A DNA stretch of 64,000 nucleotides from an uncultured bacterium (GCA_963732385.1 CAVSZB010000002.1:32001-96000), one strand, 5' to 3'; shown: positions 31,059 to 63,107, counted from the stretch's first letter. Made by a program: numbers and translations. The notes: generated by a model not told the origin, from the letters alone.

Positions 31059-31059
31059 G

Positions 31060-41030: not shown

Positions 41031-42869
41031 TCAGGCGCGTTGACGGGATTCCCGGCGGCGATCTGTTTCCAGCAATAATTTCTTGCGCAAACGGATACTT
41101 GCCGGCGTTACTTCGACGAGTTCATCGTCATCGATGAACTCCAGTGCCTGCTCCAGGGAGAAGCGTATCGGCGGCGTCAGCAACAGGTCTTCATCCGTGC
41201 CGGCGGCGCGGATATTGGTCAGCTGCTTGGCCTTGGTCGGATTGATGACCAGGTCGCTGCCCCGGCTGTGTATGCCGCAGATCATGCCTTCGTACACCGG
41301 CTCGCCATGGCCGATGAACAAACGACCGCGCTCCTGCAGGTTGAACAGCGCATAAGCCAGCGCCTTGCCGGCCACCATGGAAATCAGCACGCCATTGTTG
41401 CGCTGGCCGATCGAGGCCGGAATGCGGCGATCGTATTTTTCGAACACGTGATAAATCAGCCCGGTGCCCGAGGTGCAGGTCAGATACTCGGTACGGAAGC
41501 CGATCAGGCCACGCGCCGGCATCCGGTACTCCAGACGCAGACGACCCGTGCCATCCGGGGTCATGGTCAGCAGCTCGCCCTTGCGCTCGGCGAGGCGGCT
41601 CATCACGGCACCCTGGAACTGCTCTTCGAAATCGACCGTGAGCTGCTCCCAGGGTTCGCAGACGACGCCGTCGATCTCCTGCTCGATCACCTCGGGCCGG
41701 GAAACTGCCAGCTCATAGCCTTCGCGACGCATGTTCTCGATGAGGATCGACAGGTGCAGTTCACCGCGGCCGGAAACCTTGAACTTGTCTGGATCCTCGG
41801 TCGGCTCCACGCGCAAGGCCACGTTGTGCTTCAGTTCGCGTTCAAGGCGTTCCTTGATGTGCCGGCTGGTCAGGAACTTGCCTTCCTTGCCGGCAAACGG
41901 CGACTTGTTCACGCAGAAAGTCATGCTGATGGTCGGCTCATCCACCTTGAGCGGCGGCAGGCCCTCGGGTACTTCGCGGTCGCAGACGGTGTCGGAGATG
42001 AAGAGTTCCTCGATGCCGCTGAACACCACGATATCGCCGGCGCTGGCCGACTCGACCTTGTAACGGTTGAGACCGAGGAAGCCGTACAGCTCGCCCAGCC
42101 GCCCGCTGCGCACCTTGCCGTTCGCACCGACGATGCTCACGGTGGATCCGGCCACGGCCCTGCCGCGCGTGATGCGGCCGATGCCGAGCATGCCCACATA
42201 GGAGTCGTAATCGAGACTGGAAACCTGCAGCTGCAGCGGACCGTTGGGATCCACTTTCGGTGGTGCCACGTGCTTGACGATGGCCTCGAAGAGCGGCGTC
42301 ATGTCGCCGGAACGCACGCTGGACTCGAGCCCGGCGTAGCCGTTCAGCGCCGAGGCGTAGATGACCGGGAAATCGAGCTGGGCATTGGTCGCACCCAGCC
42401 GGTCAAACAGCTCGAAGGTTGCATCCAGCGCCCAACCCGGGCGGGCACCATCACGGTCGATCTTGTTGATCACGACGATCGGCGTGAAACCGAAGGCAAA
42501 GGCCTTCTGGGTCACGAAGCGGGTCTGCGGCATCGGACCGTCGACGGCATCGACCAGCAACAGCACGCAATCCGCCATCGACAGCACGCGCTCGACCTCA
42601 CCACCGAAGTCGGCATGTCCGGGCGTGTCGATGATGTTGATGAAGTAGTCACCCCAGGTGATCGCGGTATTCTTGGCCAGGATGGTGATGCCGCGCTCCT
42701 TCTCGAGGTCATTCGAGTCCATGGCCCGCTCGGGCAGCTGGAAGCGCACATCAAGGGTGCCGGACTGGCGCAGCAGCTTGTCGACCAGCGTGGTTTTGCC
42801 ATGGTCGACGTGCGCGATGATGGCGATATTGCGCAGCTTGTCGGTCGGTTTGGTGACAGAGTTGTTCAT
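41031..42869 (-). CDS. typA: Translational GTPase TypA/BipA
   Basis: [43 protein letters not shown]. Confidence 0.97.
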
Positions 42870-47123: not shown

Positions 47124-48074
47124 ATGGCTAACGTATCCACCATCAAGCCCTTCGCCAAGGGCGACATCCTCGTCGGCGTCACCCTTCTCAACCGCGCCGA
47201 CGACGACCATGCCGGCGATGGCCGGATCATCCAGTACGACAGCGATCTCAACGAAAAAGGCGTGCTGTGGACCAGCGGGACCAGCCACCTGATCGCCGGC
47301 CTGCGCTTCGGACCGGACAAGACCCTGTGGGCCTTCGACTGCAACGCGCATGCTGTCCTGCGCTATGGGCCGGACGGCAAGGAACTGCCGCGGATCAAAT
47401 TCGCCGACCGCTCCTTTTCCAACATCAATTTCACGGCGGACGGCAATGTGCTGTTCGGCGAGCACCTGGTCGGCAACACCATCAAGCTGCCGCCGGAACG
47501 CCCGCTTGGCACCACGCTGGCGAAGATGCCGGGCAGCGATCGCTTCGGTGACGGCCACGTCTTCAAGTTCACGCCGGATGGCAAGTTGCTCAAGGAGTAT
47601 GCGACCGAGACACACGGCGGCATGGCCGGCTTTCTCGGCGCCACCACCGCGAGCCTTGCGCCGGACAACCGGACGCTGGTGTATTGCTCGGAAACCGGCA
47701 CGCGCGTGTTCCAGTACGACATCGTCGCCGACAAACAGCTGCCCGACCTGATCACCCTGCAGCCCGGCGCCGGCGAGATGGCCCTGCTGGCGCAGCATCT
47801 GCCGGACGGCACGCTGCTGTACCTGAAGGCCAACTTCAAGACCGGCTTCAAGCTCGATCACCTGCAGGCGAACGGGGAACTCATCAAGAGCTGGGATCTG
47901 CCGGGACCAGGCTGGGCGACCGTCATCCCGCTGCAGGAACCCGGCATACTGCTGCTCGGCAATTTCTTCACCGGCACGGTGGCCAAGTTCGACATGCAGA
48001 CGGGCGCCCTCGGCGCAAAGGCCGAAACCGGCGTCAAGCGCTCACTCGCCGGTCTCGCTCAATATCCCGGCTGA
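47124..48074 (+). CDS. Hypothetical beta-propeller protein (NHL/SMP-30-like)
   Basis: GGAG RBS; repeats GLRFGPD, NFTADG, KFTPDG, LAPDN, LPDG. Confidence 0.7.
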   Translation: MANVSTIKPFAKGDILVGVTLLNRADDDHAGDGRIIQYDSDLNEKGVLWTSGTSHLIAGLRFGPDKTLWAFDCNAHAVLRYGPDGKELPRIKFADRSFSNINFTADGNVLFGEHLVGNTIKLPPERPLGTTLAKMPGSDRFGDGHVFKFTPDGKLLKEYATETHGGMAGFLGATTASLAPDNRTLVYCSETGTRVFQYDIVADKQLPDLITLQPGAGEMALLAQHLPDGTLLYLKANFKTGFKLDHLQANGELIKSWDLPGPGWATVIPLQEPGILLLGNFFTGTVAKFDMQTGALGAKAETGVKRSLAGLAQYPG

Positions 48075-48081
48075 AACGGCT

Positions 48082-48155
48082 GTAGGAGCGCCTTCAGGCG
48101 CGATCTGGTTTTCAAACCGTGATCGCGGCTGAAGCCGCTCCTACGCCGCTCCTAC
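48082..48155. repeat. GTAG-type REP doublet
   Basis: GTAGGAGCGCCTTCAGGCGCGAT (48082-48104) inverted to ATCGCGGCTGAAGCCGCTCCTAC (48122-48144), plus an extra GCCGCTCCTAC. Confidence 0.9.
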
Positions 48156-48949
48156 CAGGGCAGGACGCTGCCGTCGAAGGTCCAGAAGGTTCCGCTGTTT
48201 TCGAGGCTGAGCTGATCGGTGATGCGGATCAGGTCGCTGCCGGCCGTTTCCACCGGGCGCAGCATCTTCTTCGGCAGCATGCTCATCATGTCCGTGTCCA
48301 CCGGACCCGGATCGATCAGGGCCACGGCAACACCCTTGCTCTTCAGCTGGATCGCCAGGTTGCGCATTTCCATGTTCAGCGCCGCCTTGCTGGGCCGGTA
48401 GAAGTACAGCATGCCGTTGTTCATGCTGCCGATCGAACCCTGGCTGCTGGACACGTTGCTGATCTTCTTCTGCTGGCTGGCAAGTATGTGGGGCAGAAAG
48501 GCCTCCGCCATCTTCAAGGGCCCGATGACATTGGTACGCAGTACCAGCTCGTAAACCGGCCAGTCCATCTTTTTGGCGAACAGCTGGTTGTTGCCGCCAC
48601 CGGTAATCCCGGCATTGTTGAACAGCACATCGACAGGCTGCCCCTGATACTTCGCGGCCAGCGCATCGATCGCGGCAAGATCGGTGACATCCAGCGTCTC
48701 GATGTTCACCCGGCCCTCACTCTTTGCGGCAAGCGCGCCGAGTTCAGTCGCTTCGGCCGGCTTGCGCGCCGTGGCAATCACCTTCCAGCCCCGGGCGGCA
48801 TACTGCCGCGTCAGTTCCAGGCCGATACCCCGGTTGGCACCGGTAACCAGCACCGTCGGCACGTAGTCGTCGGCACGCGCCAGCGTGCCTGCGAACAGGG
48901 TTAGAGTGGCGAACAGCGCGAGGCTGCGGCTGAATATCCGGATCATCAT
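48152..48949 (-). CDS. SDR oxidoreductase (C-factor/carbonyl reductase-like) with Sec-type signal peptide
   Basis: Signal ending ARA|DD; TGANRGIG, NNAG, YRPSK, PGPVDTDM. Confidence 0.88.
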   Translation of the reverse strand: MMIRIFSRSLALFATLTLFAGTLARADDYVPTVLVTGANRGIGLELTRQYAARGWKVIATARKPAEATELGALAAKSEGRVNIETLDVTDLAAIDALAAKYQGQPVDVLFNNAGITGGGNNQLFAKKMDWPVYELVLRTNVIGPLKMAEAFLPHILASQQKKISNVSSSQGSIGSMNNGMLYFYRPSKAALNMEMRNLAIQLKSKGVAVALIDPGPVDTDMMSMLPKKMLRPVETAGSDLIRITDQLSLENSGTFWTFDGSVLPW

Positions 48950-48974
48950 TGCTCTCCTGAGAAAGTTCCGGCAG

Positions 48975-49799
48975 CTACCAGGGCAGGATCTGTCCCTTTG
49001 TATCCAGGAACTGCCCGGTCATGGACAGGTCGAAACGGTCGATCTCGCGCACCATGTCGGTCACCGCATCGGCAACCGGGCGCAGCATCTTCTTTGGCAG
49101 GCCTTTCATGAAGTCGGTGTCGGTCGCACCCGGCGTCACCAGTCCGACGATGATGCCGCGACTTTTCAGCTGGAAAGCCAGATTGACCATCAGCATGTTC
49201 AGCGCCGACTTGCTGGACCGGTACCAGTAGAGACGCGCTGCATCGACACTGCCGATGGACCCCTGGCTGCTGGACACGGTCATCATCTTGCGCAGGCGAC
49301 TGGCCTCGACGTGTTTTACGAAGGCCTCGCAGACCTTCATCGGGCCGATCGCGTTGACCGCCATCACCTCGTTGAAGGTCGCATAGTTCAGCCGGCCGAA
49401 CAGCTGGTTTTCCATGCCGCCGCCGATGCCGGCATTGTTCAGCAGGATATCGATCGGCTGTGTTGCATAACGGGCTGCGAGCGCGTCGATGCCGGCGTGA
49501 TCCAGCACATCCAGCGGCTCAACCACGAGATTGGCATGCTTTTTCGCCAGCGCCTGCAGCGCCTCGGCCCTGCCCGGATCACGGCAGGTGGCGAGCACCC
49601 GCCAGTCGCGCGCTGCATAACGCTGCGCAAATTCCAGGCCGATGCCGCGGCTGGCACCGGTGATCAGCACTGTGGTCTGCTGATCGGCCGGCGTCGGTGT
49701 CGGCAGCGGCTCGCCTTCAGCCGCTGCCGCAATCCGGCCAGCGAGAGTACCCATGGTCGCCAGAGCCGCAGTGCTGCGGATCAGTTCGCGCCGATCCAT
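48975..49799 (-). CDS. SDR oxidoreductase (paralog of the downstream gene) with Tat-type signal peptide
   Basis: MDRRELI...AAA|AE; TGASRGIG, NNAG, YRSSK, PGATDTDF. Confidence 0.88.
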   Translation of the reverse strand: MDRRELIRSTAALATMGTLAGRIAAAAEGEPLPTPTPADQQTTVLITGASRGIGLEFAQRYAARDWRVLATCRDPGRAEALQALAKKHANLVVEPLDVLDHAGIDALAARYATQPIDILLNNAGIGGGMENQLFGRLNYATFNEVMAVNAIGPMKVCEAFVKHVEASRLRKMMTVSSSQGSIGSVDAARLYWYRSSKSALNMLMVNLAFQLKSRGIIVGLVTPGATDTDFMKGLPKKMLRPVADAVTDMVREIDRFDLSMTGQFLDTKGQILPW

Positions 49800-49804
49800 C
49801 CCGC

Positions 49805-50953
49805 TCAGACCACGGCCTTGATGTCGTCGCGCTGCTCGGCATATCTGGCCGGATCGACCAGCGGAATCGCGTCGAGCACCCAGCCCTTCTGGCGACGACG
49901 CGCCGGGCTGGGGATCGCATAGGCGGCCCGCTCGCCACTCGCGGCAACAGCCAGCATGTCGATTTTCCAGCCTTTGGCCGCCCATTCCTTCTGCTTGGCC
50001 CGGTAGTCGAGGATGCACTGGTCAGAGGGGACCATGTACTCCTTGTTGTTCTTTTCCGGCGTAACCATCGGGTGCAGGGCTTCGATGATCTTCACGTCCT
50101 GGTTGGCCACGTACATGTTGCGCTCCATGACGTAGGCATCGGTCTTCTCTTCCAGCGAGAAATTGCGCGCACAGACCAGGTACAGATGCGTGTTCTTCTC
50201 GTCGATCGGGCGCTCGTAAAGGTACTGGTGGATGAAGAAGTTCGGGCCCGGGTGAATGTAGGTCCAGACGTGATTGGTACCGTGATACCCGGTGCCGGCC
50301 TCCAGAGAACCCTCGCCGGCGCGATATTTCTTCAGGTCGCCCTGCAGGGGCGGCGCCTGGAAGGTGTGCCAGAAACCGCGGCCCCACGGCGCATTTTCTT
50401 CCACGCGCATGTCACCGATCTTGTATTCCTCTTCGCGCTCGCCGCTGAAGCCGTGGGTATCGTGCACATACTCGTTGTGGGCGGGATCGATGCCGTTCTC
50501 TATCGACCGCTCGTAGTAGCCATTGAGATGGAAGTCCTGCACGGTGGTGCGCCAGCCCTCCTGTCCCCATTCCTTGACCGCGAGGATCGGCGGCCGTTCA
50601 GCCTCGGGGAGATCACCGAGGAACGCGAATACCAGCCCGTAGCGCTCGTCGACCGGATACGCATCGATGCGCGTGCGCCCGGGGATGCTGGCTTTGGAGC
50701 CCAGCGACGGAATCTTCTGGCACTCGCCCTCGCCGTTGAACTGCCAGCCGTGATACGGACACTGGATGCAGTCACCCTTGATCTTGCCATTGGCCAGCGA
50801 GCCGCCGCGGTGTGTGCAGGTATTGGCCAGACAACGGGCCTGACCCTGAGAATCGCGGAAGACCACGAAATCCTGGCCGAGCGCCCGCACCTTCCGCGGC
50901 TGGTCGGTGAGTTCTGCGGTGGTCGCCATGGGGTACCAGAAATTGATGTACAT
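49805..50953 (-). CDS. Rieske non-heme iron oxygenase alpha subunit (VanA/PAO-like group)
   Basis: CTHRG...CPYHGW Rieske motif; ENGIDPAHNEYVH mononuclear iron motif. Confidence 0.92.
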   Translation of the reverse strand: MYINFWYPMATTAELTDQPRKVRALGQDFVVFRDSQGQARCLANTCTHRGGSLANGKIKGDCIQCPYHGWQFNGEGECQKIPSLGSKASIPGRTRIDAYPVDERYGLVFAFLGDLPEAERPPILAVKEWGQEGWRTTVQDFHLNGYYERSIENGIDPAHNEYVHDTHGFSGEREEEYKIGDMRVEENAPWGRGFWHTFQAPPLQGDLKKYRAGEGSLEAGTGYHGTNHVWTYIHPGPNFFIHQYLYERPIDEKNTHLYLVCARNFSLEEKTDAYVMERNMYVANQDVKIIEALHPMVTPEKNNKEYMVPSDQCILDYRAKQKEWAAKGWKIDMLAVAASGERAAYAIPSPARRRQKGWVLDAIPLVDPARYAEQRDDIKAVV

Positions 50954-51065
50954 ACAAAGACTTCCTCGAACTGGATGGTTAGCGTCTGCCGGGTCGGCGC
51001 GGCAAGCCACACCTTGGTGCCCGGAATATATGCGCTTCGCTGGTCGCGGCCAAGCGGATTAGCTG

Positions 51066-52244
51066 TCAGCGACTATTTGCGGTCCTTGCAACGATGCCGA
51101 GCAGAATGCCGATGCAGGGCAACAGGATCAGCGCTGCCGTGTAAAGCGGGATGTTCACGCCGAGGGCATCGAAAAGCAGGCCGGTCAGCGGCGGCCCCAA
51201 CGCACGGCCGGCCCAACTCCCGGAGTTGTAGGTACCGAGCACGAGCCCCCGCTCGGACTCTCCCGCCTGCTGGGAAACCAGGCTGGTGACAGTCGTCATG
51301 TACAGGGCACTGCCGGCCGTTGTAAACGTGATACCGAAGACCATCATCTGCCAGGCCGGTGCCTGGGTCATGATCAGCAGGCCGAAGATATAACAAAGCA
51401 ACCCGGCGATCAGCAGCCGGCCTTCCCCGAAGATCGGCACCAGTCGGCCGACCAGCACGCCCTGAATGATGGCAACGATGGCCCCAAGATAGGTGAAGCT
51501 CAGGCCGATCTGGCGCGGCCCCCAGTCGAAGCGGGCGCCGGCCCAGAAGGGGAAGATGGATTCGAAAAGCGCCATGGCCAGATAAACCATGAAGCCGACG
51601 AGCACGATTCTGGCCAGCAGCGGCCGGGCCATGACCATGCGCAGGGCTGCCAGGCCACCCGGTCCTTTTGCTGCCCCCGCCTTGGCGCGTTTTTCCGGCG
51701 GCAGGCTTTCCTTGAGGAAAAAAATCGCACCGACCAGCATGACGGCACTGACGAATACCGCCGCAAGTCCGGGCCACAACAGGGTCGCACTGGCAGCGTC
51801 CCTGCCACCGAGCAGGCCACCGAGCATCGGTCCGACGATGAATCCCATGCTCAGCGAACCGCCCACGTAACCCATCGACTTCGCACGCTGCTCGGGCGGC
51901 GTCAGATCGGAAACATAGGCCATGGCCAATGCGAGACTGCCACCCATCAGGCCGGTGAGCAGCCGCCCGAGACCGAGCAGCCACAGATTCGATGCGAAGG
52001 CGAGAATGAGATAGCTGACCAGCCCGCCGGCAATGCTGATCACCAGCAGTGGCTTGCGCCCATAGCGGTCGGAAAGGCGCCCCCAGACGGGCGTAGACAG
52101 CACCTGGCCTACGGCGTAGAGGCCGAGGATCGTGGTTGCCACTGCCGATGAGGCGCCGAGCTTCGTCGCCACGAAAGGAAAACCGGGCAGGATCAGACCG
52201 AAGCCCATCCCGGAAAGAAGGATGGTCAGAAACAGTATCGGCAT
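51066..52244 (-). CDS. MFS transporter (TetA/DHA1-like)
   Basis: WGRLSDRYGRKP, GFIVGPMLGG, LKESLP; about 12 TMs. Confidence 0.9.
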   Translation of the reverse strand: MPILFLTILLSGMGFGLILPGFPFVATKLGASSAVATTILGLYAVGQVLSTPVWGRLSDRYGRKPLLVISIAGGLVSYLILAFASNLWLLGLGRLLTGLMGGSLALAMAYVSDLTPPEQRAKSMGYVGGSLSMGFIVGPMLGGLLGGRDAASATLLWPGLAAVFVSAVMLVGAIFFLKESLPPEKRAKAGAAKGPGGLAALRMVMARPLLARIVLVGFMVYLAMALFESIFPFWAGARFDWGPRQIGLSFTYLGAIVAIIQGVLVGRLVPIFGEGRLLIAGLLCYIFGLLIMTQAPAWQMMVFGITFTTAGSALYMTTVTSLVSQQAGESERGLVLGTYNSGSWAGRALGPPLTGLLFDALGVNIPLYTAALILLPCIGILLGIVARTANSR

Positions 52245-52276
52245 GGGGATCCCTGGCGACCTGAAAGACTTTTCCC

Positions 52277-52383
52277 GCAGGAGCGCCTTCTGTGTGGGAG
52301 CGCCTTCAGGCGCGATTCCCGTACGCAGGCGCGGCTTCAGCTCCTGCGTACGGGTTTGGGATCGCGGCTGAAGCCGCTCCTAC
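52277..52383. repeat. REP doublet with internal palindrome
   Basis: GTGGGAGCGCCTTCAGGCGCGAT (52294-52316) and ATCGCGGCTGAAGCCGCTCCTAC (52361-52383) flank CCCGTACGCAGG...CCTGCGTACGGG. Confidence 0.88.
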
Positions 52384-53333
52384 CGCCGCCGCTTCTTGCC
52401 GACGTGGCCACCAACCGGCTTGTCATGCAGCAGGCGCACCTGCGTGTCGTTCTGGTAGTCCGGGTTCTCGAAGTCGGGCGGACCATGCGGATGGTTGTGG
52501 CCATCCGAGTTCACCCACTGGTACAGCGCCGGACGCTTGCGATAGAGATTGGCCGCAGCACGCAGCTTGTTCTCGTCCGGATTCGTCCACGGGTTGAAGT
52601 GGAAATAGTTGAACAGCACCGAATCGGTACGGCCAAAGGCAATGGTGCCGTACTTGCAACGGAAGGAGCCGTGGTTGATGTACGGCGGCCGCCAGAAGTA
52701 GCCACCGGTCGGCAGTTCACCGAACTGCATCATCCAGGAGCTGCCCCAGATGTGATACGACTCTTCGGCACTGTCGTGATAGCTGATGTTGTCCTGGGCA
52801 AACTGCGGGGTCATGCAGTAGAGGAAGCTCAGCGCCTCGGTCATCACGTCATAGTGCAGCACCTTGATCAGGCAGCCTGAAGCCACCGACGGGTTGACGA
52901 GATTGCCGGGCGCCCAGGGGCGATCCTCATAGCTGTTCACCGAGGAAAACGCATCGGTGAGCGCCAGACGATGATGCTGGTCGGTCTCCGCGAAGCTCGG
53001 CTCGCTGTCGTTGAACATCAACAGCACTTCGGCGCCCTGCGGCACCTCGATGGCGCCGATGGCCATGCCGGCCGGAATGAAAGCGTAGTGGCCCTCGATC
53101 CAGACCTGCTTGCCAACCTTGATCTGGCCGTTCAGGACGAAGATTTCTGCATCCGAGTAACTGAGGCCGGGCTTGCGCCTGAAGCCGCCATCGAAGCGGA
53201 CTTTCAGCGTGCAGGCACCGGTGTCCTTGTCCAGGGACAGGACCTTGTAGTGACTGCCCTTGAAGCCGGTCAGGTCGAATTTCTTGAAGGGATGATCGAG
53301 CTCGACGTACGGCTCTATATGCGGTCGTGCCAC
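52380..53333 (-). CDS. Double cupin protein (DUF4437/ChrR-like)
   Basis: LSLDKDTGACT, EIFVLNG, YHDSAEESY, GGYFWRPPYINHG; GGAG RBS before GTG. Confidence 0.72.
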   Translation of the reverse strand: MARPHIEPYVELDHPFKKFDLTGFKGSHYKVLSLDKDTGACTLKVRFDGGFRRKPGLSYSDAEIFVLNGQIKVGKQVWIEGHYAFIPAGMAIGAIEVPQGAEVLLMFNDSEPSFAETDQHHRLALTDAFSSVNSYEDRPWAPGNLVNPSVASGCLIKVLHYDVMTEALSFLYCMTPQFAQDNISYHDSAEESYHIWGSSWMMQFGELPTGGYFWRPPYINHGSFRCKYGTIAFGRTDSVLFNYFHFNPWTNPDENKLRAAANLYRKRPALYQWVNSDGHNHPHGPPDFENPDYQNDTQVRLLHDKPVGGHVGKKRRR

Positions 53334-53345
53334 GGGGATTACTCC

Positions 53346-53612
53346 TTAAAAAACTACCTGGTGCTTGCCTTTCGGCTTCTTGGCGATCTCGCTCGGTTTG
53401 ACGATGCGTTTCATGTCGCCGCTGACGTTGAAGCCCCGGGTCTGGATGATCTGCAGGAACTGTTCAACCCACTTTTCACGCTGGGGTCCGAGTTCGTCCT
53501 GTTCCTTGACGATCGCTGCGTAGCGCTTTTTCTGCTCCGCAAGGTTTTCCCTGATCCACTGCAGCGCTTCAGCCTTGCGCGCCGGCTTGGTGTCTTGAAC
53601 TCGTTTGGCCAT
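53346..53612 (-). CDS. Small basic hypothetical protein (88 aa)
   Basis: AGGAG RBS; in-operon position; FLQIIQTRGFNVSGD. Confidence 0.75.
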   Translation of the reverse strand: MAKRVQDTKPARKAEALQWIRENLAEQKKRYAAIVKEQDELGPQREKWVEQFLQIIQTRGFNVSGDMKRIVKPSEIAKKPKGKHQVVF

Positions 53613-53623
53613 TTTCTACTCCT

Positions 53624-53759
53624 GTTGGAGCGGCTTCAGCCGCGATCCATTATTGTAGCGATCGCGCCTCTGCAGGCGCGATCCATCGTAGGAGCGCCTT
53701 CAGCGCGATCCATCGTTGTTCGGTATCGCGCCTGAAGCCGCTCCTACGGGCGCTCCTAC
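53624..53759. repeat. REP cluster (four to five units)
   Basis: GTTGGAGCGGCTTCAGCCGCGAT, GTAGGAGCGCCTTCAGCGCGAT, ATCGCGCCTGAAGCCGCTCCTAC, GCGCTCCTAC. Confidence 0.88.
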
Positions 53760-54649
53760 TTGCGATACCAGTCGTTGACCTCGTCGCCGGTCGTCAGCCA
53801 CACGTCCTTGTGACTGGCGATATGCGCAAAAGCCCGCTTGAGGTGCTTGAACTTGTTTGGCTGACCGACCCAGAAAGTATGCAGGCAGATCGGCATGCAG
53901 CGGGCGTTGTCAGCTCCCTCACTGTATAGCACATCAAACTGGTCGACAATCATATCGCCAAACGCCTCTGAACTGACGCCGACATTGGCAAAAGCCGGGA
54001 TGTCATTCAGTTCGACGGTATACGGCACCGAAATCAGGCTGCCCTTCTTCACATTGAACGGGAAGGGATGATCATCGGCGGTGTAGTCGCACAGGTACTC
54101 GACGCCCATGTCGGCAAGGATGCTCGGCGTGTTGTTGGTATGCGTCAGGAAGGGCGAGAGCCAGCCTTTGGTCTTGCGGCCAATGGCCTTCTCCATTGCC
54201 TTCAGCACGCCGCCGATGATCTCGCGCTCCTTCTTCTCGTCGATGCCGGACAGGAAATTGGCCGGGGCGTTGTTGATGCCATGGCCGATGAATGCCCACT
54301 TGCGCTTGTTGGTTTCCTCGATGATGCGCGGATACTCGCGGATGATCTCGGAGTTGAGACAGACCGTGCCGCGCATGCCGATCTGGTCCATGAGTTCGAT
54401 CATTCTCCACAGCCCGACCCGGTTGCCGTAGTCGCGCCAGCCGTAGTTCAGCGGATCCGGGTTGAACTGCTGCGTGCCGGGGATGATCGCGGTACCGGGA
54501 ATATTGTGCGGAAAGTGCTCGATGTTGATGTACGGGATGACGGCAACGCGGGCGCCCTTCGGCAGCTTGAACTTCGGCCGGTCGATGATCGGCACGTAGT
54601 CATAGTGCGGGCTCTGCGTCAGCTTGCTGCGATCAACTTTGGTGGCCAT
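53756..54649 (-). CDS. Polysaccharide deacetylase family (CE4, PuuE-like) hydrolase
   Basis: NIEH, GWRDYGNRVGLWR, GHG, GWLSP, YTVELND, LHTFWVGQP. Confidence 0.88.
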   Translation of the reverse strand: MATKVDRSKLTQSPHYDYVPIIDRPKFKLPKGARVAVIPYINIEHFPHNIPGTAIIPGTQQFNPDPLNYGWRDYGNRVGLWRMIELMDQIGMRGTVCLNSEIIREYPRIIEETNKRKWAFIGHGINNAPANFLSGIDEKKEREIIGGVLKAMEKAIGRKTKGWLSPFLTHTNNTPSILADMGVEYLCDYTADDHPFPFNVKKGSLISVPYTVELNDIPAFANVGVSSEAFGDMIVDQFDVLYSEGADNARCMPICLHTFWVGQPNKFKHLKRAFAHIASHKDVWLTTGDEVNDWYRK

Positions 54650-54672
54650 GGCTTTTCCTTTTGCAGTTGTTG

Positions 54673-55326
54673 TCAACGTGCCTTCTTGACGGCCTTGAGG
54701 CTCCGGATGTACTTGAGTGCCTCGGTCTTGCTGATGACATCGCCATACTTGGCATTGATGTCGAAGAGATTGGCTTCGTGCGGACCATCGTGCCGGTCAC
54801 CAACGCATTCGCGGACCACGATCGGGCGAAAACCGTTCTGCACCGCATCCACCGCCGATGCGCGGACGCACCCGGAGGTGGTGCAGCCGGTGATCATCAG
54901 CGTGTCGATGCCCGCAGCAGTCAAGGTGGCCGCCAGCGAGGTGCCGAAGAAAACACTCGCGTAGTTCTTGACGATGACCAGTTCGCCCTTGCCCGGCTCC
55001 ACGCCCTTGCAGAACTGGGCATACTTGTTGCCCGGCACCAGGCTCTTCAGGACCGGCGCCTTTTTGATCCAGACTCCGCCGTCGATGAAATCCGACGGGT
55101 TGTAGAACACCCGGGTGTGGATGACCGGCATTTTCTTCTGCCGGGCCAGCTTCAGCAGCTCCGGCATCTCCTTGACGGCCTTGACCACGCCCGGCGCGAA
55201 CAATGGCGCACCTTTCAGCGTGTAGCCCTGCAGCAGGTCGATCACGATCAGAGCGGTCTTGCGGCCGAAGCCCAGCCGGTTGTCCCAGACGCCTGCGTAA
55301 TTGCTGGCTGCCGTAGTCTGCGCCAT
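54673..55326 (-). CDS. Isochorismatase family amidase (maleamate amidohydrolase/N-carbamoylsarcosine amidase-like)
   Basis: LGFGRKTALIVID, KNYASVFFGT, GCTTSGCVRASAVDA (D-K-C triad), HEANLFDINAKYGDV. Confidence 0.9.
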   Translation of the reverse strand: MAQTTAASNYAGVWDNRLGFGRKTALIVIDLLQGYTLKGAPLFAPGVVKAVKEMPELLKLARQKKMPVIHTRVFYNPSDFIDGGVWIKKAPVLKSLVPGNKYAQFCKGVEPGKGELVIVKNYASVFFGTSLAATLTAAGIDTLMITGCTTSGCVRASAVDAVQNGFRPIVVRECVGDRHDGPHEANLFDINAKYGDVISKTEALKYIRSLKAVKKAR

Positions 55327-55474
55327 GGTTGTTTCCCTTGATGATTGCGAAGCGCATAGTTCCACCGAACGGCGCGCCCCGCAAGCCGCCGTTCACACGG
55401 TGGCCACGCATCAAACGCAGGCGAATGAAGCACCGCGACACGGACCAGAATGCAGGTCTACAGGAGGATCCGCC

Positions 55475-56086
55475 ATGAACACCACATCTGCCAACGCACC
55501 GATCATTGCCGAAGTTCCCCCGCATGCACCCAAGGCGGCCGCCGGGGCCGCAAACCAGTACAAGACCCTCAGCGGCTTCGAAGGTCATGAAGAGGAACTC
55601 GGCCGCTCGATGTCGATTCTGCTGAAGATGCTCGGCAATCACACCGGCTACGCGCACGAGATGAATGACCCGCTGGTCAAGGCGCACCTGCTGGCCATCC
55701 AGTTTGCCAAGAACCAGGGCAAGCTCGCCGAGTACATCGCCCACGACATCAAGACCATGGCACCGATCAACCTGCGCATGAAGCAGATCATCGAAAAGAC
55801 CGGCCATCCGGAAATCGCCCTGGTGGCGCTGTTCGACCGCACCGCCTGCCACTACGCGCTGGCGCTGACCAGCACTGGCGATGGTGACAGCCGCACCTGG
55901 AAAGATCCCTTCGGCTGGGTGCTGACCCAGTGCCACAAGATCGGCCAGTTCGACCTGACTTCGCAGGAGATCCACGAGACCTGGACCACGCCCCGCCTGC
56001 TCGGCTATGGCGAGGCGATGGGGGTGAAACTGAAGGTCACCCCGTGGCAGGAAGACGGGATGATCACCTGCTCGCTGGTCCGCTGA
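55475..56086 (+). CDS. Hypothetical cytoplasmic protein
   Basis: AGGAGG RBS; strong host codon bias; 203 aa; no family recognised. Confidence 0.78.
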   Translation: MNTTSANAPIIAEVPPHAPKAAAGAANQYKTLSGFEGHEEELGRSMSILLKMLGNHTGYAHEMNDPLVKAHLLAIQFAKNQGKLAEYIAHDIKTMAPINLRMKQIIEKTGHPEIALVALFDRTACHYALALTSTGDGDSRTWKDPFGWVLTQCHKIGQFDLTSQEIHETWTTPRLLGYGEAMGVKLKVTPWQEDGMITCSLVR

Positions 56087-56148
56087 CTGGCTGGCATGCT
56101 CCGGTTATGGTATTTGTCTGTGGACTTCAATTCAGGGGGGACGCCTGC

Positions 56149-58386
56149 ATGAACCAACGCCAGCCGATGACCACGAGACTGGGCCAGATTGCCCTGGGGG
56201 CCGCGCTTGCTGCCGGCTCCCTGCCCGCCCAGGCCGCAATCGACGAAATCCTCGTTACCGCCCAGCGGCGTGAACAGAACCTGCAGGTCGTACCGCTGGC
56301 AGTCAGCGCCTTCGACATCAACCAGATCAGAACCCGGCAGATCGACACCGTAAAGGATATCGGCCGGAACGTCCCGAACCTGCAGACCTATACGGTGACG
56401 GCCGGCGCACAGGCCATACAGGTGCACTCGCGCGGTGCCAGCGTGCAGAACCCGGGCTTCAATCTTTCCGAATCGCCGGTCGGCATCTACATCGATGACG
56501 TTTATTTCGGTCGACTCGCAAGCGTGAACCTCGACCTGTCGGATGTGGAACGCATCGAGGTACTGCGCGGTCCACAGGGCACGTTGTACGGTCGCAACAC
56601 GATCGCCGGTGCCGTCAAGATCATCACGCGCACGCCGGGCGACGAGAGCTGGGCAACCGGATCAGTGGGCATCGGCAACTATGAAACCACCAAGATTGCC
56701 GGCTCCTTCGGCGGTCCGATCGAGGAAGGCGCCTTGGCTGCCTCGATCTCCGCAGTCTACGACAATCGCGATGAAGGCTGGCAGAACAACCCGATCACCG
56801 GTGCTGATCCCGGCGAGTACAAGAACAAGGCAGCGCGTGCAAAATTGCACTGGTATGGCACCCGGAATTTCGATGCGGTGCTGACCGCATGGGTTGTCGA
56901 CCTCGAGAACGATGGTTACAACGGCGTTCCCTATGCACCCTTTGCCAATGCAGGCACGAACGCCAATTTCGATCCGGCTCCTCCAGGCGGACCATTGGAC
57001 GGCTTTTATGCCAACTTCGATCCACCAGGTGTGAACTACGGCAGTTCGGATCAGGCCGGGACCAACCTCGCGCTGAGCTTCGAGTTTGGCGGCGTCACCC
57101 TGAAGTCCATCACGGGCTACGCAAACATCGATGACCAGTTCGGCTTTGATCTGGCCGGTGGCGGCAACCAGGGCGTGGCCGGCGCCACCGGCCTGCTGAT
57201 CACCTCCGACTCGACCCTCGACCAGTTCAGCCAGGAGTTCCAGCTGCTGGGACGGCTCGGCGACAGTTTCGACTGGCAGCTCGGCCTGTTCTACCTGAAC
57301 GAGGATGGCTCACAGTCATTTGCGGGTGACGCCGGTGCCTTTGTCGGCAATTTTGCCGAGCAGATCGAGAACGAGACAGACAGCTACGCGGTGTTTGCCG
57401 AGGGCACATACAAGTTCACCGATGCGCTCTCGCTTACCGGCGGCCTGCGCTGGACCCAGGACGAAAAAGAGTACAGTGACACCTGCCTGAGCACGCCGTC
57501 GGTGCTGAACCTGCTGGCCTGCCAGCCGGCCAGCGGCGCCACGGTGGATCTGGACGATGACTGGGACGAACTCACCGGCAAGCTGTCCCTCAACTACCAG
57601 CTCAACGACGACCAGCTGGTCTACCTGGGTTTCTCCCAGGGCTACCAGTCGGGCGGATACCGCACGCTGTGCTTCGGCAACCTCACCGCGGCCTGTGGTG
57701 GCACGCCGTTCGACCCGCAGACTGTCGACAGCATCGAGGCCGGCTGGAAGGCCGAGCTTTTCGACAACCGTCTGCGCCTCAACGCGGTGGCGTTCTACGC
57801 CATGTATGAAGATATCCAGCAGGTCGTCACGAACTTTGCCGGCGGTTTTCCGATCGACAACATCGGTGATGTGGATGTCTATGGCCTTGAACTCGAGATC
57901 CTCTGGGCGCCGATCGATGACCTGAACGTCTACGCCAACCTCGGCATCCAGGAAAGCGACTTCGGTTCGGTGAGCCCGCTGTCACCGCCGGGTGGCCTGG
58001 GTGACTCCTGCGTGGACGACCCGACGCCCCCCTGCGCAACACCGACCGACGAACTGCCCTCCAACCCGAAATGGCAGGGCAAGATCGGCTTTGACTACAC
58101 CATTCCGCTGGAGAACAGCCTCGCCTTCTTCTACGGCCTGGACATCTACCATTCAGACGACTACTACAGCGAGGCCCGCAACCTCATCGAGATCGAAAGC
58201 TATACGCGGCTGAATGGCTTCATCGGCTTTGGTGCCGACGACCAGCACTGGCAGGTCATCCTGAGTGGCAAGAACATCACCGACGAAGAAGACAACGTGT
58301 CGGGCATCTTCGCCAACAACTTCACCAATATCCGTACGCCGCTGCCACCGGCCGAGTACATGCTGAGCTTCAAGGTCAACTACTGA
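56149..58386 (+). CDS. TonB-dependent receptor
   Basis: Signal peptide, DEILVTAQRREQ, IEVLRGPQGTLYGRNTIAG, C-terminal SFKVNY. Confidence 0.95.
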   Translation: MNQRQPMTTRLGQIALGAALAAGSLPAQAAIDEILVTAQRREQNLQVVPLAVSAFDINQIRTRQIDTVKDIGRNVPNLQTYTVTAGAQAIQVHSRGASVQNPGFNLSESPVGIYIDDVYFGRLASVNLDLSDVERIEVLRGPQGTLYGRNTIAGAVKIITRTPGDESWATGSVGIGNYETTKIAGSFGGPIEEGALAASISAVYDNRDEGWQNNPITGADPGEYKNKAARAKLHWYGTRNFDAVLTAWVVDLENDGYNGVPYAPFANAGTNANFDPAPPGGPLDGFYANFDPPGVNYGSSDQAGTNLALSFEFGGVTLKSITGYANIDDQFGFDLAGGGNQGVAGATGLLITSDSTLDQFSQEFQLLGRLGDSFDWQLGLFYLNEDGSQSFAGDAGAFVGNFAEQIENETDSYAVFAEGTYKFTDALSLTGGLRWTQDEKEYSDTCLSTPSVLNLLACQPASGATVDLDDDWDELTGKLSLNYQLNDDQLVYLGFSQGYQSGGYRTLCFGNLTAACGGTPFDPQTVDSIEAGWKAELFDNRLRLNAVAFYAMYEDIQQVVTNFAGGFPIDNIGDVDVYGLELEILWAPIDDLNVYANLGIQESDFGSVSPLSPPGGLGDSCVDDPTPPCATPTDELPSNPKWQGKIGFDYTIPLENSLAFFYGLDIYHSDDYYSEARNLIEIESYTRLNGFIGFGADDQHWQVILSGKNITDEEDNVSGIFANNFTNIRTPLPPAEYMLSFKVNY

Positions 58387-62030: not shown

Positions 62031-63107
62031 TCAGCGCAACTTCGGCAGCACCTGCTCCGCAAACACCCGCGCCTGTGCCACCAACCCGGCCTGGCGCTCG
62101 CCATGCGGTGCGGCCACGGGCGATCCGCCCAGCACGTTGACGTGATCCAGCCCGAGGGCGATCAGCTGCTGCAGGCGCTCCAGGCACTTGGAAGCCGGAC
62201 CGCAGATGGAAAACCAGTCGACAAAGGCATCGTCGACCATGCCGAGGTGTTTGCCGTCGTGCTGCGCGTGGCGGGCCATGTCGTAACCGGACTTCATCTG
62301 TTCGGCCAGCCCCTTGAGTTGTGGCGGCAGGTGTTCGGTCGGTGAATTCCGCATGCCGGCGAAATGCGCGACCATGCCGGAAATCATCCGGCCCAGGTCG
62401 ATCGCGCGCTGCTCGTCCGGATCGCAGACCAGGTTGACGAAAGCACCCACGCTCAACGACGCGCGGTCGCGTCCGGTCTCGGCCAGACGCGCCTGCAGGA
62501 TGTCCAGTGCCCAGCTGATGCGCTCGGGCGCACTGCCCACGGCAAAGCTCACGCGGTCGGCGATATCTGCGGCCATGCGGATGGTGGCCGGTCCGGTGCA
62601 GGCAAGATCGATCGGCACCGTGGGGAAGTCGCCAGGCTGTATCCAGCGCATGCGTGAACTGGTCTCGCCGCGCATCACCTCGTCACCGCGCAGATAGCCG
62701 CGCAGCTGCTCGATATAGCTGCGCAGTTCTGCCGTCGTGGCATTGCGTCGGCCGATATGCGCGGCCGAGGAATCGCCCCGGCCGATGCCACAGCGTGCCC
62801 GGCCACCCGACTCGATCTGCAGGGTCGCCAGCGCACCGGCAGTGACCGATGAATCACGCGTCAGGGGGTTGGTCACCCCGGTGCCCAGGAACAGCCGCGT
62901 GGTGCGCGCCGCTGCCAGGCTGAGCTGACCATAGGGATCAGGGCTGAGGCACTGCGTATCGGGGCACAGCAGCGCATCGAAGCCCATCGCTTCGATCTCG
63001 GCGGCGAGTCTCGCGGTGTAGCCCGCCGAGGGCTCCATCACCATACCGACTTCAAGCGGCCTCATTGGCTGCAGTCCGTCAATGCGGCTTGACTCATCCG
63101 TTGCCAC
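62031..63107 (-). CDS. LLM class flavin-dependent oxidoreductase (start 63107 or 63065)
   Basis: PDTQ, LGTGVTNPLTR, SGGR..CGIGRGDS, ACTGP. Confidence 0.88.
   Translation of the reverse strand: MATDESSRIDGLQPMRPLEVGMVMEPSAGYTARLAAEIEAMGFDALLCPDTQCLSPDPYGQLSLAAARTTRLFLGTGVTNPLTRDSSVTAGALATLQIESGGRARCGIGRGDSSAAHIGRRNATTAELRSYIEQLRGYLRGDEVMRGETSSRMRWIQPGDFPTVPIDLACTGPATIRMAADIADRVSFAVGSAPERISWALDILQARLAETGRDRASLSVGAFVNLVCDPDEQRAIDLGRMISGMVAHFAGMRNSPTEHLPPQLKGLAEQMKSGYDMARHAQHDGKHLGMVDDAFVDWFSICGPASKCLERLQQLIALGLDHVNVLGGSPVAAPHGERQAGLVAQARVFAEQVLPKLR

What the first reader, a model, noticed from the sequence alone, without database searches (positions are those of the whole stretch)
47124..58386. 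Uncharacterised uptake and catabolism cluster, possibly for tetrapyrrole/bilin or another N-heterocycle
Seen: a TonB receptor and a hypothetical gene divergent from an isochorismatase-family amidase, PuuE-like hydrolase, 88-aa protein, bicupin, MFS, Rieske oxygenase and two SDRs, with a convergent beta-propeller gene. Established: PuuE-type CE4 enzymes open cyclic amides; NicF-type enzymes hydrolyse maleamate; PAO/CAO-type Rieske enzymes act on chlorins; maleimides are tetrapyrrole breakdown products; TonB uptake implies a large or scarce substrate. Inference: oxygenation, then imide ring opening, then deamidation of a pyrrole-derived substrate. No Rieske reductase or ferredoxin is in the cluster.
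Basis: inference. Interest (0 to 1): 0.7.

Follow-up and report, generated by a model that had tools for sequence, protein, structure and literature searches.

The report
Probable bacterial tetrapyrrole-pigment breakdown genes
This is a real, conserved but undescribed set of uptake and breakdown genes that travels with a relative of the plant enzyme that detoxifies opened chlorophyll, so it probably lets non-photosynthetic bacteria feed on chlorophyll- or haem-type pigments, although no substrate has been tested.

Summary
All eleven genes are present as described. The contig is gammaproteobacterial and foreign to its bin, so I tested the cluster in 201 genomes of its true order. A red-chlorophyll-catabolite-reductase-like gene (RCCR, PF06405) occurs in 64. 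All 64 carry the cluster's Rieske subfamily and a bicupin homologue, and 60 carry its V4R-fold protein. None of 109 bicupin-free genomes has RCCR. The RCCR-plus-bicupin state needs 6-9 changes on a TypA tree. In ten genomes RCCR lies 9-15 kb from the bicupin; in two it sits head-to-head with a same-subfamily Rieske gene. A [2Fe-2S] ferredoxin near RCCR may be the missing electron donor. A second LeuC-like hydratase tracks the bicupin (84 of 85). The 88-aa protein is predicted to bind the bicupin (0.89; best control 0.13). Best reading: uptake and oxidative breakdown of tetrapyrrole pigments through imides and substituted maleates (about 0.65). Against: no substrate data; the Rieske lacks the PaO domain; RCCR was not found on this contig; 21 of 82 genomes with the bicupin orthologue lack RCCR. 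Ten literature searches found no such bacterial pathway.

The parts
47124..48074 (+). Beta-propeller protein (SGL/NHL-like), possible lactonase-type hydrolase; conserved member of the module
   Evidence: Pfam SGL E 2.4e-4, below cut-off; Atlas nearest clusters SGL-like, score 0.98-0.99; in 12 of 80 loci and beside SDR-Rieske-HYP in five loci of streamlined genomes
48077..48148 (.). REP-like palindromic repeat pair between convergent genes; same family at 52293-52388 and 53621-53759
   Evidence: the repeat finder D2, D4, I2-I9
48152..48949 (-). SDR 1 with a Sec-type signal-like N-terminus (exported, inferred); TGxxxGxG at 36, YxxxK at 184
   Evidence: Pfam adh_short; motifs and N-terminal extensions in homologues
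48975..49799 (-). SDR 2 with a twin-arginine signal-like N-terminus (exported, inferred); TGxxxGxG at 47, YxxxK at 193
   Evidence: 54% identical to SDR 1
49805..50953 (-). Rieske non-haem iron oxygenase of an expanded subfamily; candidate ring- or bridge-cleaving enzyme
   Evidence: Rieske + VanA_C; C46/H48/C65/H68 and E152-D156-H159-H164; subfamily in 75 of 201 genomes, including all 64 with RCCR; a 36%-identical homologue is head-to-head with RCCR in G195 and G287
51066..52244 (-). MFS transporter of the TetA-like (DHA1) efflux type; direction and substrate unknown
   Evidence: NF012174 203 bits vs cut-off 475; in 20 of 80 loci
52380..53333 (-). DUF4437 bicupin, large subunit of a predicted two-subunit metalloenzyme; invariant H186, E190, E191, H221 and C-terminal GHNHP
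   Evidence: closest solved relative 2qdr, uncharacterised, E 2.2e-13; complex score 0.89 vs best control 0.13
53346..53612 (-). 88-aa protein of no known family, predicted small subunit of the bicupin
   Evidence: directly upstream of the bicupin in 69 of 80 loci; invariant W19, Q27, R30, R45, F52, G60, G65, D66
53756..54649 (-). CE4/PuuE-like hydrolase, candidate cyclic-imide opener; E44, H123-GINN, H257
   Evidence: TIGR03212 119.5 bits vs cut-off 424.6; PDB 3cl6 E 1.3e-21; close orthologue (E<1e-150) in 51 of 201 genomes, all RCCR-positive
54673..55326 (-). Isochorismatase-fold cysteine amidase (CSHase/NicF-like), candidate maleamate-type deamidase; D30-K120-C153
   Evidence: best PDB hits 26st, 1nba, 4l07, 3ot4, E 4.5e-50 to 5.2e-38; triad
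55327..55474 (.). 148-bp divergent intergenic region, presumed promoter region for both arms; not scanned for promoters
   Evidence: gene spacing
55475..56086 (+). Hypothetical protein with a V4R/H-NOX/Bet3-like fold and invariant H61, H71, C125, H167; candidate pigment-binding sensor or carrier
   Evidence: model pLDDT 76; VIA hits TRAPP Bet3 Z 6.3 (rmsd 4.4, 130 aligned), PoxR Z 5.4, H-NOX Z 5.1, all middling; in 63 of 201 genomes, 60 shared with RCCR; tandem pair in 6 of 80 loci
56149..58386 (+). TonB-dependent outer-membrane receptor, candidate entry point
   Evidence: Plug + barrel; below every NCBIfam siderophore, haem and B12 cut-off; TBDR family in 32 of 80 loci

Best explanation
The cluster is part of a dispersed, aerobic pathway by which heterotrophic Gammaproteobacteria take up and break down tetrapyrrole pigments (chlorophyll-derived chlorins or their ring-opened catabolites, possibly also bilins) for carbon and nitrogen. 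Proposed order: (1) The TonB receptor imports the pigment, and exported SDRs act on it in the periplasm (export signals shown in sequence; role inferred). (2) Rieske oxygenases of this expanded subfamily cut methine bridges, using a free [2Fe-2S] ferredoxin encoded near RCCR (cofactor motifs and the ferredoxin gene shown; reaction inferred by analogy with plant PAO). (3) An RCCR-like reductase encoded elsewhere reduces the opened tetrapyrrole (gene shown in sister genomes, not on this contig). (4) The 88-aa/bicupin metalloenzyme acts on a smaller shared intermediate, since it tracks the lower pathway more closely than it tracks RCCR (complex predicted; reaction unknown). (5) The PuuE-like enzyme opens substituted maleimides, and the cysteine amidase releases ammonia to give substituted maleates (catalytic residues shown; substrates inferred). 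(6) A second LeuCD-like hydratase, a family III CoA-transferase and an HMG-CoA-lyase-like enzyme finish the carbon (genes shown in related genomes; reactions inferred). The V4R-fold protein binds or senses the pigment, and the TetA-like MFS moves or expels reactive intermediates (both inferred).
For: In 201 genomes of the contig's true order: RCCR family 64, bicupin 92, Rieske subfamily 75, PuuE-like orthologue 51, V4R-fold protein 63. The sets nest: 51 in 64 in 75 in 92. 0 of 109 bicupin-negative and 0 of 126 Rieske-negative genomes have RCCR; 60 of 63 V4R-positive genomes have it. On a TypA tree of 90 of these genomes the RCCR-plus-bicupin state needs 9 changes (6 forced by supported branches), and the 9 other genomes in the window's own supported clade are all RCCR-positive. 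RCCR is 9.4-14.5 kb from the bicupin on one contig in ten genomes, eight of them 1.4-1.5 Mb. RCCR is head-to-head with a same-subfamily Rieske gene, next to a hydrolase with a weak chlorophyllase hit (E 1.4e-4, below cut-off), in G195 and G287, and next to ferrochelatase in G160 and G220. The RCCR-like profile finds Arabidopsis RCCR first (E 5e-14), then bilin reductases. An exported coproporphyrinogen-oxidase-like protein lies next to a same-subfamily Rieske gene in L037/L038 and occurs in 22 of 50 bicupin genomes; CPOX shares its fold with FDBR and RCCR (PMC10151467, passage). A hydrolase above the Pfam chlorophyllase cut-off (one representative scanned) is in 5 of 80 loci. A second LeuC-like gene is in 85 of 201 genomes, 84 of them bicupin-positive, separate from the leucine-operon copy in 5 of 5 checked. 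Five RCCR-positive genomes show no haem oxygenase and no reaction-centre gene, with controls ringing. Maleimides and haematinic acid are reported chlorophyll and haem breakdown products (PMC7318184, PMC9840898, passages).
Against: No substrate, induction or activity data. RCCR was not found on this contig or in the bin; this is weak either way, because the bin holds only a small part of this organism. The Rieske has VanA_C, not the PaO domain, and PF08417 is absent from 5 of 5 genomes tested. 21 of 82 genomes with the bicupin orthologue, and 11 of 11 named Alphaproteobacteria among the 50 tested, have no RCCR match. 3 of 5 such Alphaproteobacteria also lack the Rieske subfamily. So the bicupin pair and the hydratase are not specific to RCCR. 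In the streamlined genomes unrelated genes (two-component pair, beta-oxidation genes) lie between RCCR and the bicupin, and most RCCR loci near the window's clade sit among housekeeping genes. The bacterial RCCR-like proteins seem to lack the equivalent of RCCR Glu154 (my reading; residue roles recalled). PAO-family Rieske enzymes can act on non-tetrapyrroles such as flavones (PMC9306834, passage). Genomes are related and incomplete, so the counts overstate independence. Fold matches for the V4R-like protein and DUF1838 are middling.
Confidence: 0.65

Rival explanations
1. The window's genes serve only the lower, small-molecule part. They scavenge mono- and dipyrrolic products (maleimides, propentdyopents, BOX-type lactams) formed abiotically or by other cells, and the Rieske enzyme attacks these rather than an intact macrocycle.
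For: Plasmids pJE1 and pTomTYG65b carry a distant bicupin, the amidase, two PuuE-like genes, two LeuCD pairs, CoA-transferase, HMG-CoA lyase and an ICL/PEP-mutase-family lyase, with no Rieske or RCCR annotated in the stretches shown (pJE1 amidase 38% and PuuE-like 36% identical to the window's). The bicupin tracks the hydratase (78 of 82) better than RCCR (61 of 82).
Against: The window's own PuuE-like orthologue, Rieske subfamily and V4R-fold protein are tied to RCCR, and RCCR-family enzymes act on linear tetrapyrroles (PMC9306834, passage). A TonB receptor suits a large substrate (established knowledge).
Confidence: 0.14
2. A pathway for a non-tetrapyrrole N-heterocycle (a pyridine, indole, quinoline or alkaloid) that ends in a maleamate-type route as in nicotinate catabolism; the RCCR-like gene has another substrate or merely shares a lifestyle.
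For: NicF-like amidase; a molybdenum hydroxylase large subunit in 12 and an arylmalonate-decarboxylase/maleate-isomerase-like gene in 3 of 80 loci; best PDB Rieske hits act on phthalate, steroids, saxitoxin precursors and methylxanthines.
Against: RCCR never appears without these genes (0 of 109) across 6-9 tree changes; CPOX-like, chlorophyllase-like and ferrochelatase neighbours. No nicotinate-pathway gene was recognised by Pfam in the neighbour families scanned, though NicX was not searched for directly.
Confidence: 0.12
3. Detoxification or pigment modification rather than feeding: the cell opens and reduces phototoxic porphyrinoids and exports them, or makes a bilin-like ligand for the V4R-fold protein.
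For: Efflux-type MFS; GST neighbours; V4R pairs occur in bilin biosynthesis clusters of heterotrophs (PMC10151467, passages), and the V4R-fold gene is a tandem pair in 6 of 80 loci.
Against: A TonB importer, two amide hydrolases and a linked hydratase/CoA-transferase/lyase set point to assimilation. The set is kept in 1.3-1.5 Mb genomes. Globin (BBAG) neighbours were not seen among the families scanned.
Confidence: 0.06
4. Purine (allantoin) or lignin-aromatic catabolism: PuuE allantoinase with a ureidoglycine-hydrolase-like bicupin, or a VanA-type O-demethylase.
For: PuuE is the closest solved relative of the CE4 enzyme; VanA_C domain in the Rieske; an allantoinase/hydantoinase-like gene in 4 of 80 loci.
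Against: TIGR03212 score 119.5 vs 424.6; no uricase, OHCU decarboxylase or allantoicase among the 75 neighbour representatives scanned; amide hydrolases have no role in O-demethylation; neither reading explains RCCR.
Confidence: 0.03

Closest known systems
Plant PAO/phyllobilin pathway (pheophorbide a oxygenase + red chlorophyll catabolite reductase; PMC9306834, passages read)
   Same: A Rieske non-haem iron oxygenase paired with an RCCR-family reductase (pairing seen in G195 and G287, co-occurrence in 64 of 64); no dedicated reductase gene in the cluster; ferredoxin nearby.
   Different: Found in non-photosynthetic bacteria. The Rieske lacks the PaO domain and has several paralogues per genome (up to the 9 the tool scores). 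It adds TonB uptake, exported enzymes and ring-opening/deamidating hydrolases, which suggests breakdown past the linear-tetrapyrrole stage where plants stop.
Maleamate route of nicotinate/nicotine catabolism (NicF amidase, maleate isomerase) and the 2,3-dimethylmaleate hydratase/lyase steps of nicotinate fermentation (recalled)
   Same: Cysteine amidase with Asp-Lys-Cys triad; LeuCD-like hydratase, ICL/PEP-mutase-family lyase and racemase/isomerase-like genes in related clusters.
   Different: A PuuE-like enzyme, a two-subunit bicupin and a Rieske oxygenase stand upstream instead of the Nic enzymes; tied to RCCR.
Pre-PcyA bilin reductase clusters of heterotrophic bacteria (Rockwell et al. 2023, PMC10151467; parts 1-2 of 9 and passages read)
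   Same: FDBR/RCCR-fold reductase and paired V4R proteins in non-photosynthetic bacteria.
   Different: Those clusters hold haem oxygenase, globins and an Fe-S protein and make bilins. Here the reductase is closer to RCCR than to FDBRs, no haem oxygenase was found in 5 of 5 genomes, and the neighbours are catabolic.
PuuE allantoinase (PDB 3cl6) and purine catabolism
   Same: CE4 fold with the second metal-binding His replaced (H123-x3-N127).
   Different: Far below the equivalog cut-off; no purine-pathway neighbours seen.
DUF4437 bicupin 2qdr (uncharacterised structure)
   Same: Only clear solved relative of the bicupin (E 2.2e-13).
   Different: The aligned 2qdr stretch lacks the HDxxEESY metal motif; no small subunit is known for it from my calls.

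Membership tests
Pheophorbide a oxygenase (PAO) family | Rieske [2Fe-2S] motif CxH-x16-CxxH | tested here: met
   C46, H48, C65, H68
Pheophorbide a oxygenase (PAO) family | Mononuclear iron motif D/E-x3-D-x2-H-x4-H | tested here: met
   E152, D156, H159, H164
Pheophorbide a oxygenase (PAO) family | PaO domain (Pfam PF08417) | tested here: not met
   No hit at E<=0.05; VanA_C instead; 0 of 5 RCCR-positive genomes, control rang
Pheophorbide a oxygenase (PAO) family | Opens pheophorbide a to RCC | not testable with these tools
   needs an assay
RCC reductase (gene of sister genomes, not in the window) | Pfam PF06405 above cut-off; RCCR as best solved relative | tested here: met
   64 of 201 genomes over cut-off; profile hits Arabidopsis RCCR at E 5e-14, bilin reductases at 0.012 or weaker
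RCC reductase (gene of sister genomes, not in the window) | Acidic catalytic pair (Glu154, Asp291 of the Arabidopsis enzyme; recalled) | tested here: inconclusive
   Asp equivalent invariant (D236); the Glu position reads as Ile in a gapped stretch; numbering inferred by offset
RCC reductase (gene of sister genomes, not in the window) | Encoded by the window's own organism | tested here: inconclusive
   Not in the bin, but the contig is foreign to the bin; 9 of 9 other genomes in its supported TypA clade have it
PuuE allantoinase | NCBIfam TIGR03212 above cut-off | tested here: not met
   119.5 vs 424.6 bits
PuuE allantoinase | Purine-catabolic gene neighbourhood | tested here: not met
   None among 75 neighbour representatives scanned, apart from an allantoinase/hydantoinase-like gene below cut-off in 4 of 80 loci
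NicF maleamate amidohydrolase / nicotinate cluster | Asp-Lys-Cys triad in an isochorismatase fold | tested here: met
   D30, K120, C153; shared with CSHase, so not diagnostic
NicF maleamate amidohydrolase / nicotinate cluster | Neighbouring nicA/B/C/X/D/E genes | tested here: inconclusive
   Mo-hydroxylase in 12 and isomerase-like gene in 3 of 80 loci; none in the window; NicX not searched
NicF maleamate amidohydrolase / nicotinate cluster | Hydrolyses maleamate | not testable with these tools
   needs an assay
Known TonB receptors for haem, siderophores or B12 | NCBIfam model above cut-off | tested here: not met
   best 129.7 vs 223.5 (siderophore), 55 vs 316.85 (haem), 71.4 vs 599.7 (B12)
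Tet efflux pumps | NCBIfam Tet model above cut-off | tested here: not met
   203 vs 475 bits
V4R / H-NOX ligand-binding domains | Fold likeness | tested here: inconclusive
   VIA Z 5.1-6.3 to Bet3, PoxR and H-NOX, rmsd 4.0-4.8, 98-148 aligned; no Pfam hit
Bilin lyases (for the linked DUF1838 proteins) | Calycin barrel like CpeS/CpcT | tested here: inconclusive
   BFA1 Z 8.7, CpeS Z 7.5 (rmsd 4.2, 148 aligned), nitrobindin Z 7.3, but outer-membrane barrels score 7.9

The most novel reading that the evidence does not exclude
This is the missing microbial sink for chlorophyll: a complete heterotrophic pathway, kept even in 1.4-Mb streamlined genomes. In it an expanded, non-PAO family of Rieske oxygenases cuts the macrocycle bridge by bridge, RCCR-like and exported CPOX-like proteins process the bilins, a new two-subunit cupin metalloenzyme releases single pyrroles, and PuuE- and NicF-like hydrolases with a LeuCD-type hydratase feed the rings into central metabolism.
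Probability: 0.4. Interest if true: 0.92.

Novelty: new variant of a known kind. Interest (0 to 1): 0.77.

Why it matters
Chlorophyll is made and degraded on a 10^12 kg per year scale (PMC7318184, passage). Plants stop at linear phyllobilins, and my ten searches found no described bacterial route that takes tetrapyrroles down to central metabolites. If the reading holds, this gene set names the enzymes, predicts the intermediates (substituted maleimides, maleamates, maleates) and gives marker genes for pigment-consuming bacteria, including streamlined ones. It would also give a function to several orphan families (DUF4437 with its small subunit, the V4R-like protein, DUF1838, bacterial RCCR-like and exported CPOX-like proteins) and bear on the origin of plant RCCR. 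Each step can be assayed with expressed proteins and commercial or easily prepared pigments.

Tried and rejected
(1) I first used G000's 60 listed relatives as controls (bicupin 1 weak of 60, CPOX-like 0, RCCR 0). I dropped them once TypA showed the contig is foreign to the bin, so these zeros are not evidence. Likewise the absence of RCCR, CPOX-like, hydratase and CoA-transferase orthologues from the bin says little. (2) A recalled link to a cyanobacterial RCCR/DUF1838 cluster in Nostoc could not be tested: papers confirmed only that All5022 is listed as an aldehyde dehydrogenase and Alr5027 as HutZ-like, and the one Calothrix plasmid hit was isolated. (3) A single RCCR-like sequence found no PDB relative at E<=0.1; only the profile did. 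(4) The beta-propeller found only generic WD-repeat structures. (5) No RNA run holds this stretch; two bioreactor metatranscriptomes of one study carry short pieces, mostly diverged, of several genes; not used as evidence of expression. (6) DUF1838 co-occurrence across genomes was not obtained; CpeT (PF06206), FDBR (PF05996) and chlorophyllase (PF07224) families were not searched genome-wide. (7) Literature searches for DUF4437/cupin, DUF1838 (29), bacterial bilirubin/maleimide catabolism (32), RCCR in heterotrophs, cyanobacterial locus tags (44), pJE1 (63), tetrapyrrole catabolism (99), dimethylmaleate/maleamate (125) and bacterial PAO homologues (130) gave no description of this gene set; the library lacks most subscription papers, and I read no supplements. 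(8) PDB entry 26st, the best amidase hit, carries only a family name, so its substrate is unknown to me. (9) My gene caller missed the bicupin in 2 of 80 loci, and its SDR, MFS and TBDR clusters are single-linkage and may include unrelated paralogues. (10) Two DUF1838 plasmid loci had unrelated contexts, so DUF1838 is not confined to this system.

Full report
Observation. All eleven genes are present with the stated order and strands. Eight genes run on the minus strand from the amidase to SDR 1 with gaps of 5-143 bp. The hypothetical gene and the TonB receptor diverge from them across 148 bp, and the beta-propeller converges on them. No gene reaches the cut-off of a named equivalog. Catalytic or cofactor residues are intact in the Rieske, both SDRs, the amidase, the PuuE-like enzyme and the bicupin. 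Both SDRs carry export-signal-like N-termini that most close homologues keep (judged by eye, no predictor run). The MFS is closest to TetA-type efflux models. REP-like palindromes fill three intergenic gaps.

Conservation. The bicupin has 619 relatives among 997 candidates, the best 120 at 64-97% identity and unnamed beyond DUF4437. In the best 80 of 212 genome loci, the 88-aa gene is directly upstream in 69. The run amidase>PuuE-like>88-aa>bicupin is contiguous in 27. Receptor, SDR, Rieske, hypothetical, MFS and propeller families appear in 32, 28, 25, 22, 20 and 12 loci. Many contigs are short, so these are lower bounds.

The 88-aa protein and the bicupin are predicted to form a complex: score 0.89, best of three controls 0.13, at least 85% of contacts shared between runs, partner pLDDT at least 84. 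The mark was reached by 116 of 157 solved and 2 of 215 mismatched pairs, and holds only roughly with my own alignments. I know of no like solved complex from my calls. This supports binding; it does not show it.

The contig is foreign to its bin. The window's TypA is 97% and 94% identical to G077 and G061, which carry the same cluster in the same flanks. It is only 50% and 49% identical to a same-genus and a same-family genome of G000. The bin holds a second TypA on C3, and most of C2 between 20 and 160 kb is closer in tetranucleotide make-up to the gammaproteobacterial loci than to C7. Earlier notes call the bin Krumholzibacteriota-like (unchecked). I therefore discarded G000's relatives as controls and used 201 genomes drawn from the order of G077.

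The link to tetrapyrroles. An RCCR-family gene (PF06405, over cut-off) is in 64 of the 201 genomes. The bicupin profile hits 92, of which 82 are close orthologues. The window's Rieske subfamily hits 75, often with several paralogues. A close PuuE-like orthologue is in 51, and the hypothetical protein in 63. The sets nest: all 51 lie within the 64, all 64 within the 75, and all 75 within the 92. None of the 109 bicupin-negative genomes has RCCR. The hypothetical protein and RCCR share 60 genomes, with 3 and 4 exceptions. Relatedness inflates such counts, so I built a TypA tree for 90 of the 151 genomes with a TypA match (the 30 closest plus 60 I chose to span the range). The RCCR-plus-bicupin state needs 9 changes, 6 forced by supported branches, and the window sits in a supported clade whose 9 other members are all RCCR-positive (FastTree, one gene).

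Physical linkage agrees. RCCR is 9.4-14.5 kb from the bicupin in ten genomes, with a [2Fe-2S] ferredoxin gene between them in the loci examined. The same ferredoxin lies near RCCR in the window's closest relatives L131 and L132. Low-GC 1.4-1.5 Mb genomes keep the window's genes as three modules: RCCR-ferredoxin...88-aa-bicupin-CoA-transferase; receptor-UbiD-propeller-SDR-Rieske-hypothetical; and amidase-PuuE-like. In G195 and G287 a Rieske 36% identical to the window's is head-to-head with RCCR, in a cluster with a second RCCR and a third, more distant RCCR-like gene. In G160 and G220 RCCR adjoins ferrochelatase. The RCCR-like profile finds Arabidopsis RCCR first (E 5e-14). An exported coproporphyrinogen-oxidase-like protein neighbours a same-subfamily Rieske in L037 and L038 and is in 22 of 50 bicupin genomes (50 of the 80 loci). 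Five RCCR-positive genomes show neither haem oxygenase nor a reaction centre, so the pigment would come from outside and be opened by another route.

The lower pathway. Neighbours of the bicupin pair in Emcibacter, Kordiimonas and other loci include LeuC/LeuD-like genes, family III CoA-transferases, an HMG-CoA-lyase-like gene, a nitrilase, amidohydrolases and hydantoinase/oxoprolinase. Plasmids pJE1 and pTomTYG65b gather a distant bicupin, the amidase, two PuuE-like genes, two LeuCD pairs, CoA-transferase, HMG-CoA lyase, an ICL/PEP-mutase-family lyase and a racemase-family gene. In the 201 genomes a second LeuC-like gene is in 85; 84 of these have a bicupin, and 59 of 64 RCCR-positive genomes have it. 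It is separate from the leucine-operon copy in 5 of 5 checked. LeuCD-type enzymes hydrate alkyl-substituted maleates (established knowledge; the dimethylmaleate precedent is recalled), and these are what the deamidation of pigment-derived maleimides would give. Maleimides and haematinic acid are reported products of chlorophyll and haem decay (PMC7318184 and PMC9840898, passages).

Against. Nothing here shows a substrate. The Rieske is not a PAO-family member by Pfam, and even PAO-family enzymes can take other substrates (PMC9306834, passage). 21 of 82 genomes with the bicupin orthologue and 11 of 11 named Alphaproteobacteria tested lack an RCCR match, so the cupin pair and hydratase serve a wider or purely downstream role. 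RCCR loci in the window's clade are not adjacent to the cluster. One of the two recalled catalytic acids of RCCR seems absent. The V4R-like fold of the hypothetical protein and the calycin-like fold of DUF1838 (three copies on this contig) fit pigment binding but score no better than common folds. V4R pairs do occur in bilin clusters of heterotrophs (PMC10151467, passages).

Mechanism and odds. Shown: the genes, their motifs, their linkage and co-occurrence, and a predicted two-subunit cupin. Inferred: TonB uptake of a pigment, periplasmic SDR steps, Rieske cleavage of methine bridges with a free ferredoxin, RCCR-like reduction, release of single rings, imide opening, deamidation, hydration and cleavage. 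I give 0.65 to catabolism of tetrapyrroles (about 0.4 chlorophyll-derived, 0.25 haem- or phycobilin-derived or mixed), 0.14 to scavenging of small pyrrolic products only, 0.12 to another N-heterocycle, 0.06 to detoxification or ligand synthesis, and 0.03 to purines or lignin.

Comparison and novelty. It works like the plant PAO/RCCR pair joined to a maleamate-type lower route, but it fails membership of PAO, PuuE, Tet pumps and named TonB receptors. Ten searches found no description of this gene set or of a bacterial tetrapyrrole-mineralising pathway. The library omits most subscription papers, and I read no supplements; the RCCR outgroup tree in the supplement of PMC10151467 may hold these sequences. 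Papers seen: PMC10151467 (parts 1-2 of 9 and passages); PMC9306834, PMC7318184, PMC9840898, PMC12362246 and PMC2242806 (passages); all others as search listings only. Two earlier notes of this scan describe RCCR/Rieske islands in actinobacteria; they agree but are unchecked and are not independent evidence. Verdict: a real, conserved, undescribed catabolic module, most likely for tetrapyrrole pigments, with directly testable enzymes. Interest 0.77.

Noticed in passing
window 41031-42869 (typA) and contig G000:C2: Contig C2 is gammaproteobacterial and misbinned: its TypA is 94-97% identical to G061/G077, 49-50% to G000's listed kin, and the bin has a second TypA on C3. C2 beyond about 160 kb has a very deviant tetranucleotide make-up and may be chimeric or low-complexity.
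   Followed up: partly
G000:C2 28.6-33.6 kb (window 1-1686 is the receptor's end), 103-106 kb, 115-118 kb, 121-128 kb, 129-132.5 kb: Satellite genes of the same set on this contig: aldehyde dehydrogenase + DUF1838 + TonB receptor; DUF1838 + flavin amine oxidase; TetR + second Rieske (34% to the window's) + SDR; nitrilase + molybdopterin oxidoreductase + MFS; TonB receptor + DUF1838.
   Followed up: partly
L038:5406-6365 and L093-L107: A family of coproporphyrinogen-III-oxidase-like proteins with export-signal-like N-termini, in 22 of 50 bicupin genomes; no function known from my calls.
   Followed up: partly
L108 (pJE1, record 89-44799) and L113 (pTomTYG65b): A near-identical module of about 45 kb on sphingomonad plasmids with two LeuCD pairs, two PuuE-like genes, amidase, CoA-transferase, two lyases, hydantoinase A/B and a HapK/RedY-like gene; cultured hosts for testing the lower pathway.
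   Followed up: partly
L035:6849-7565 and 14 other loci (family f15): A His-rich membrane protein, recalled as nickel-transporter-like (no Pfam hit at 1e-5), lies close to the 88-aa/bicupin pair in 15 of 80 loci; it may hint at a nickel cofactor.
   Followed up: no
window 62031-63107 (-): Luciferase-like monooxygenase that lies directly next to the TonB receptor in L006 and L068, but is separated here by a DUF2157 pair and a DUF7453 gene; may belong to the set.
   Followed up: no
window 16476-19315 and 30096-33725: An HMG-CoA reductase fused to a GHMP kinase with a NUDIX gene, and carotenoid genes (phytoene synthase, desaturase-like, lycopene cyclase).
   Followed up: no
window 22321-26044: Cluster of small toxin-antitoxin-type genes (PemK/MazF, two PIN domains, RHH).
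   Followed up: no
window 48077-48148, 52293-52388, 53621-53759: A REP-like palindromic repeat family in three intergenic gaps; relatives in other runs vary or skip them.
   Followed up: partly
L177:5183-17044 and L178:5667-16572 (G195, G287): A compact cluster with Rieske, two RCCR genes, a third distant RCCR-like gene, a weakly chlorophyllase-like hydrolase, flavin reductase and SDRs; the best single target for assays.
   Followed up: partly
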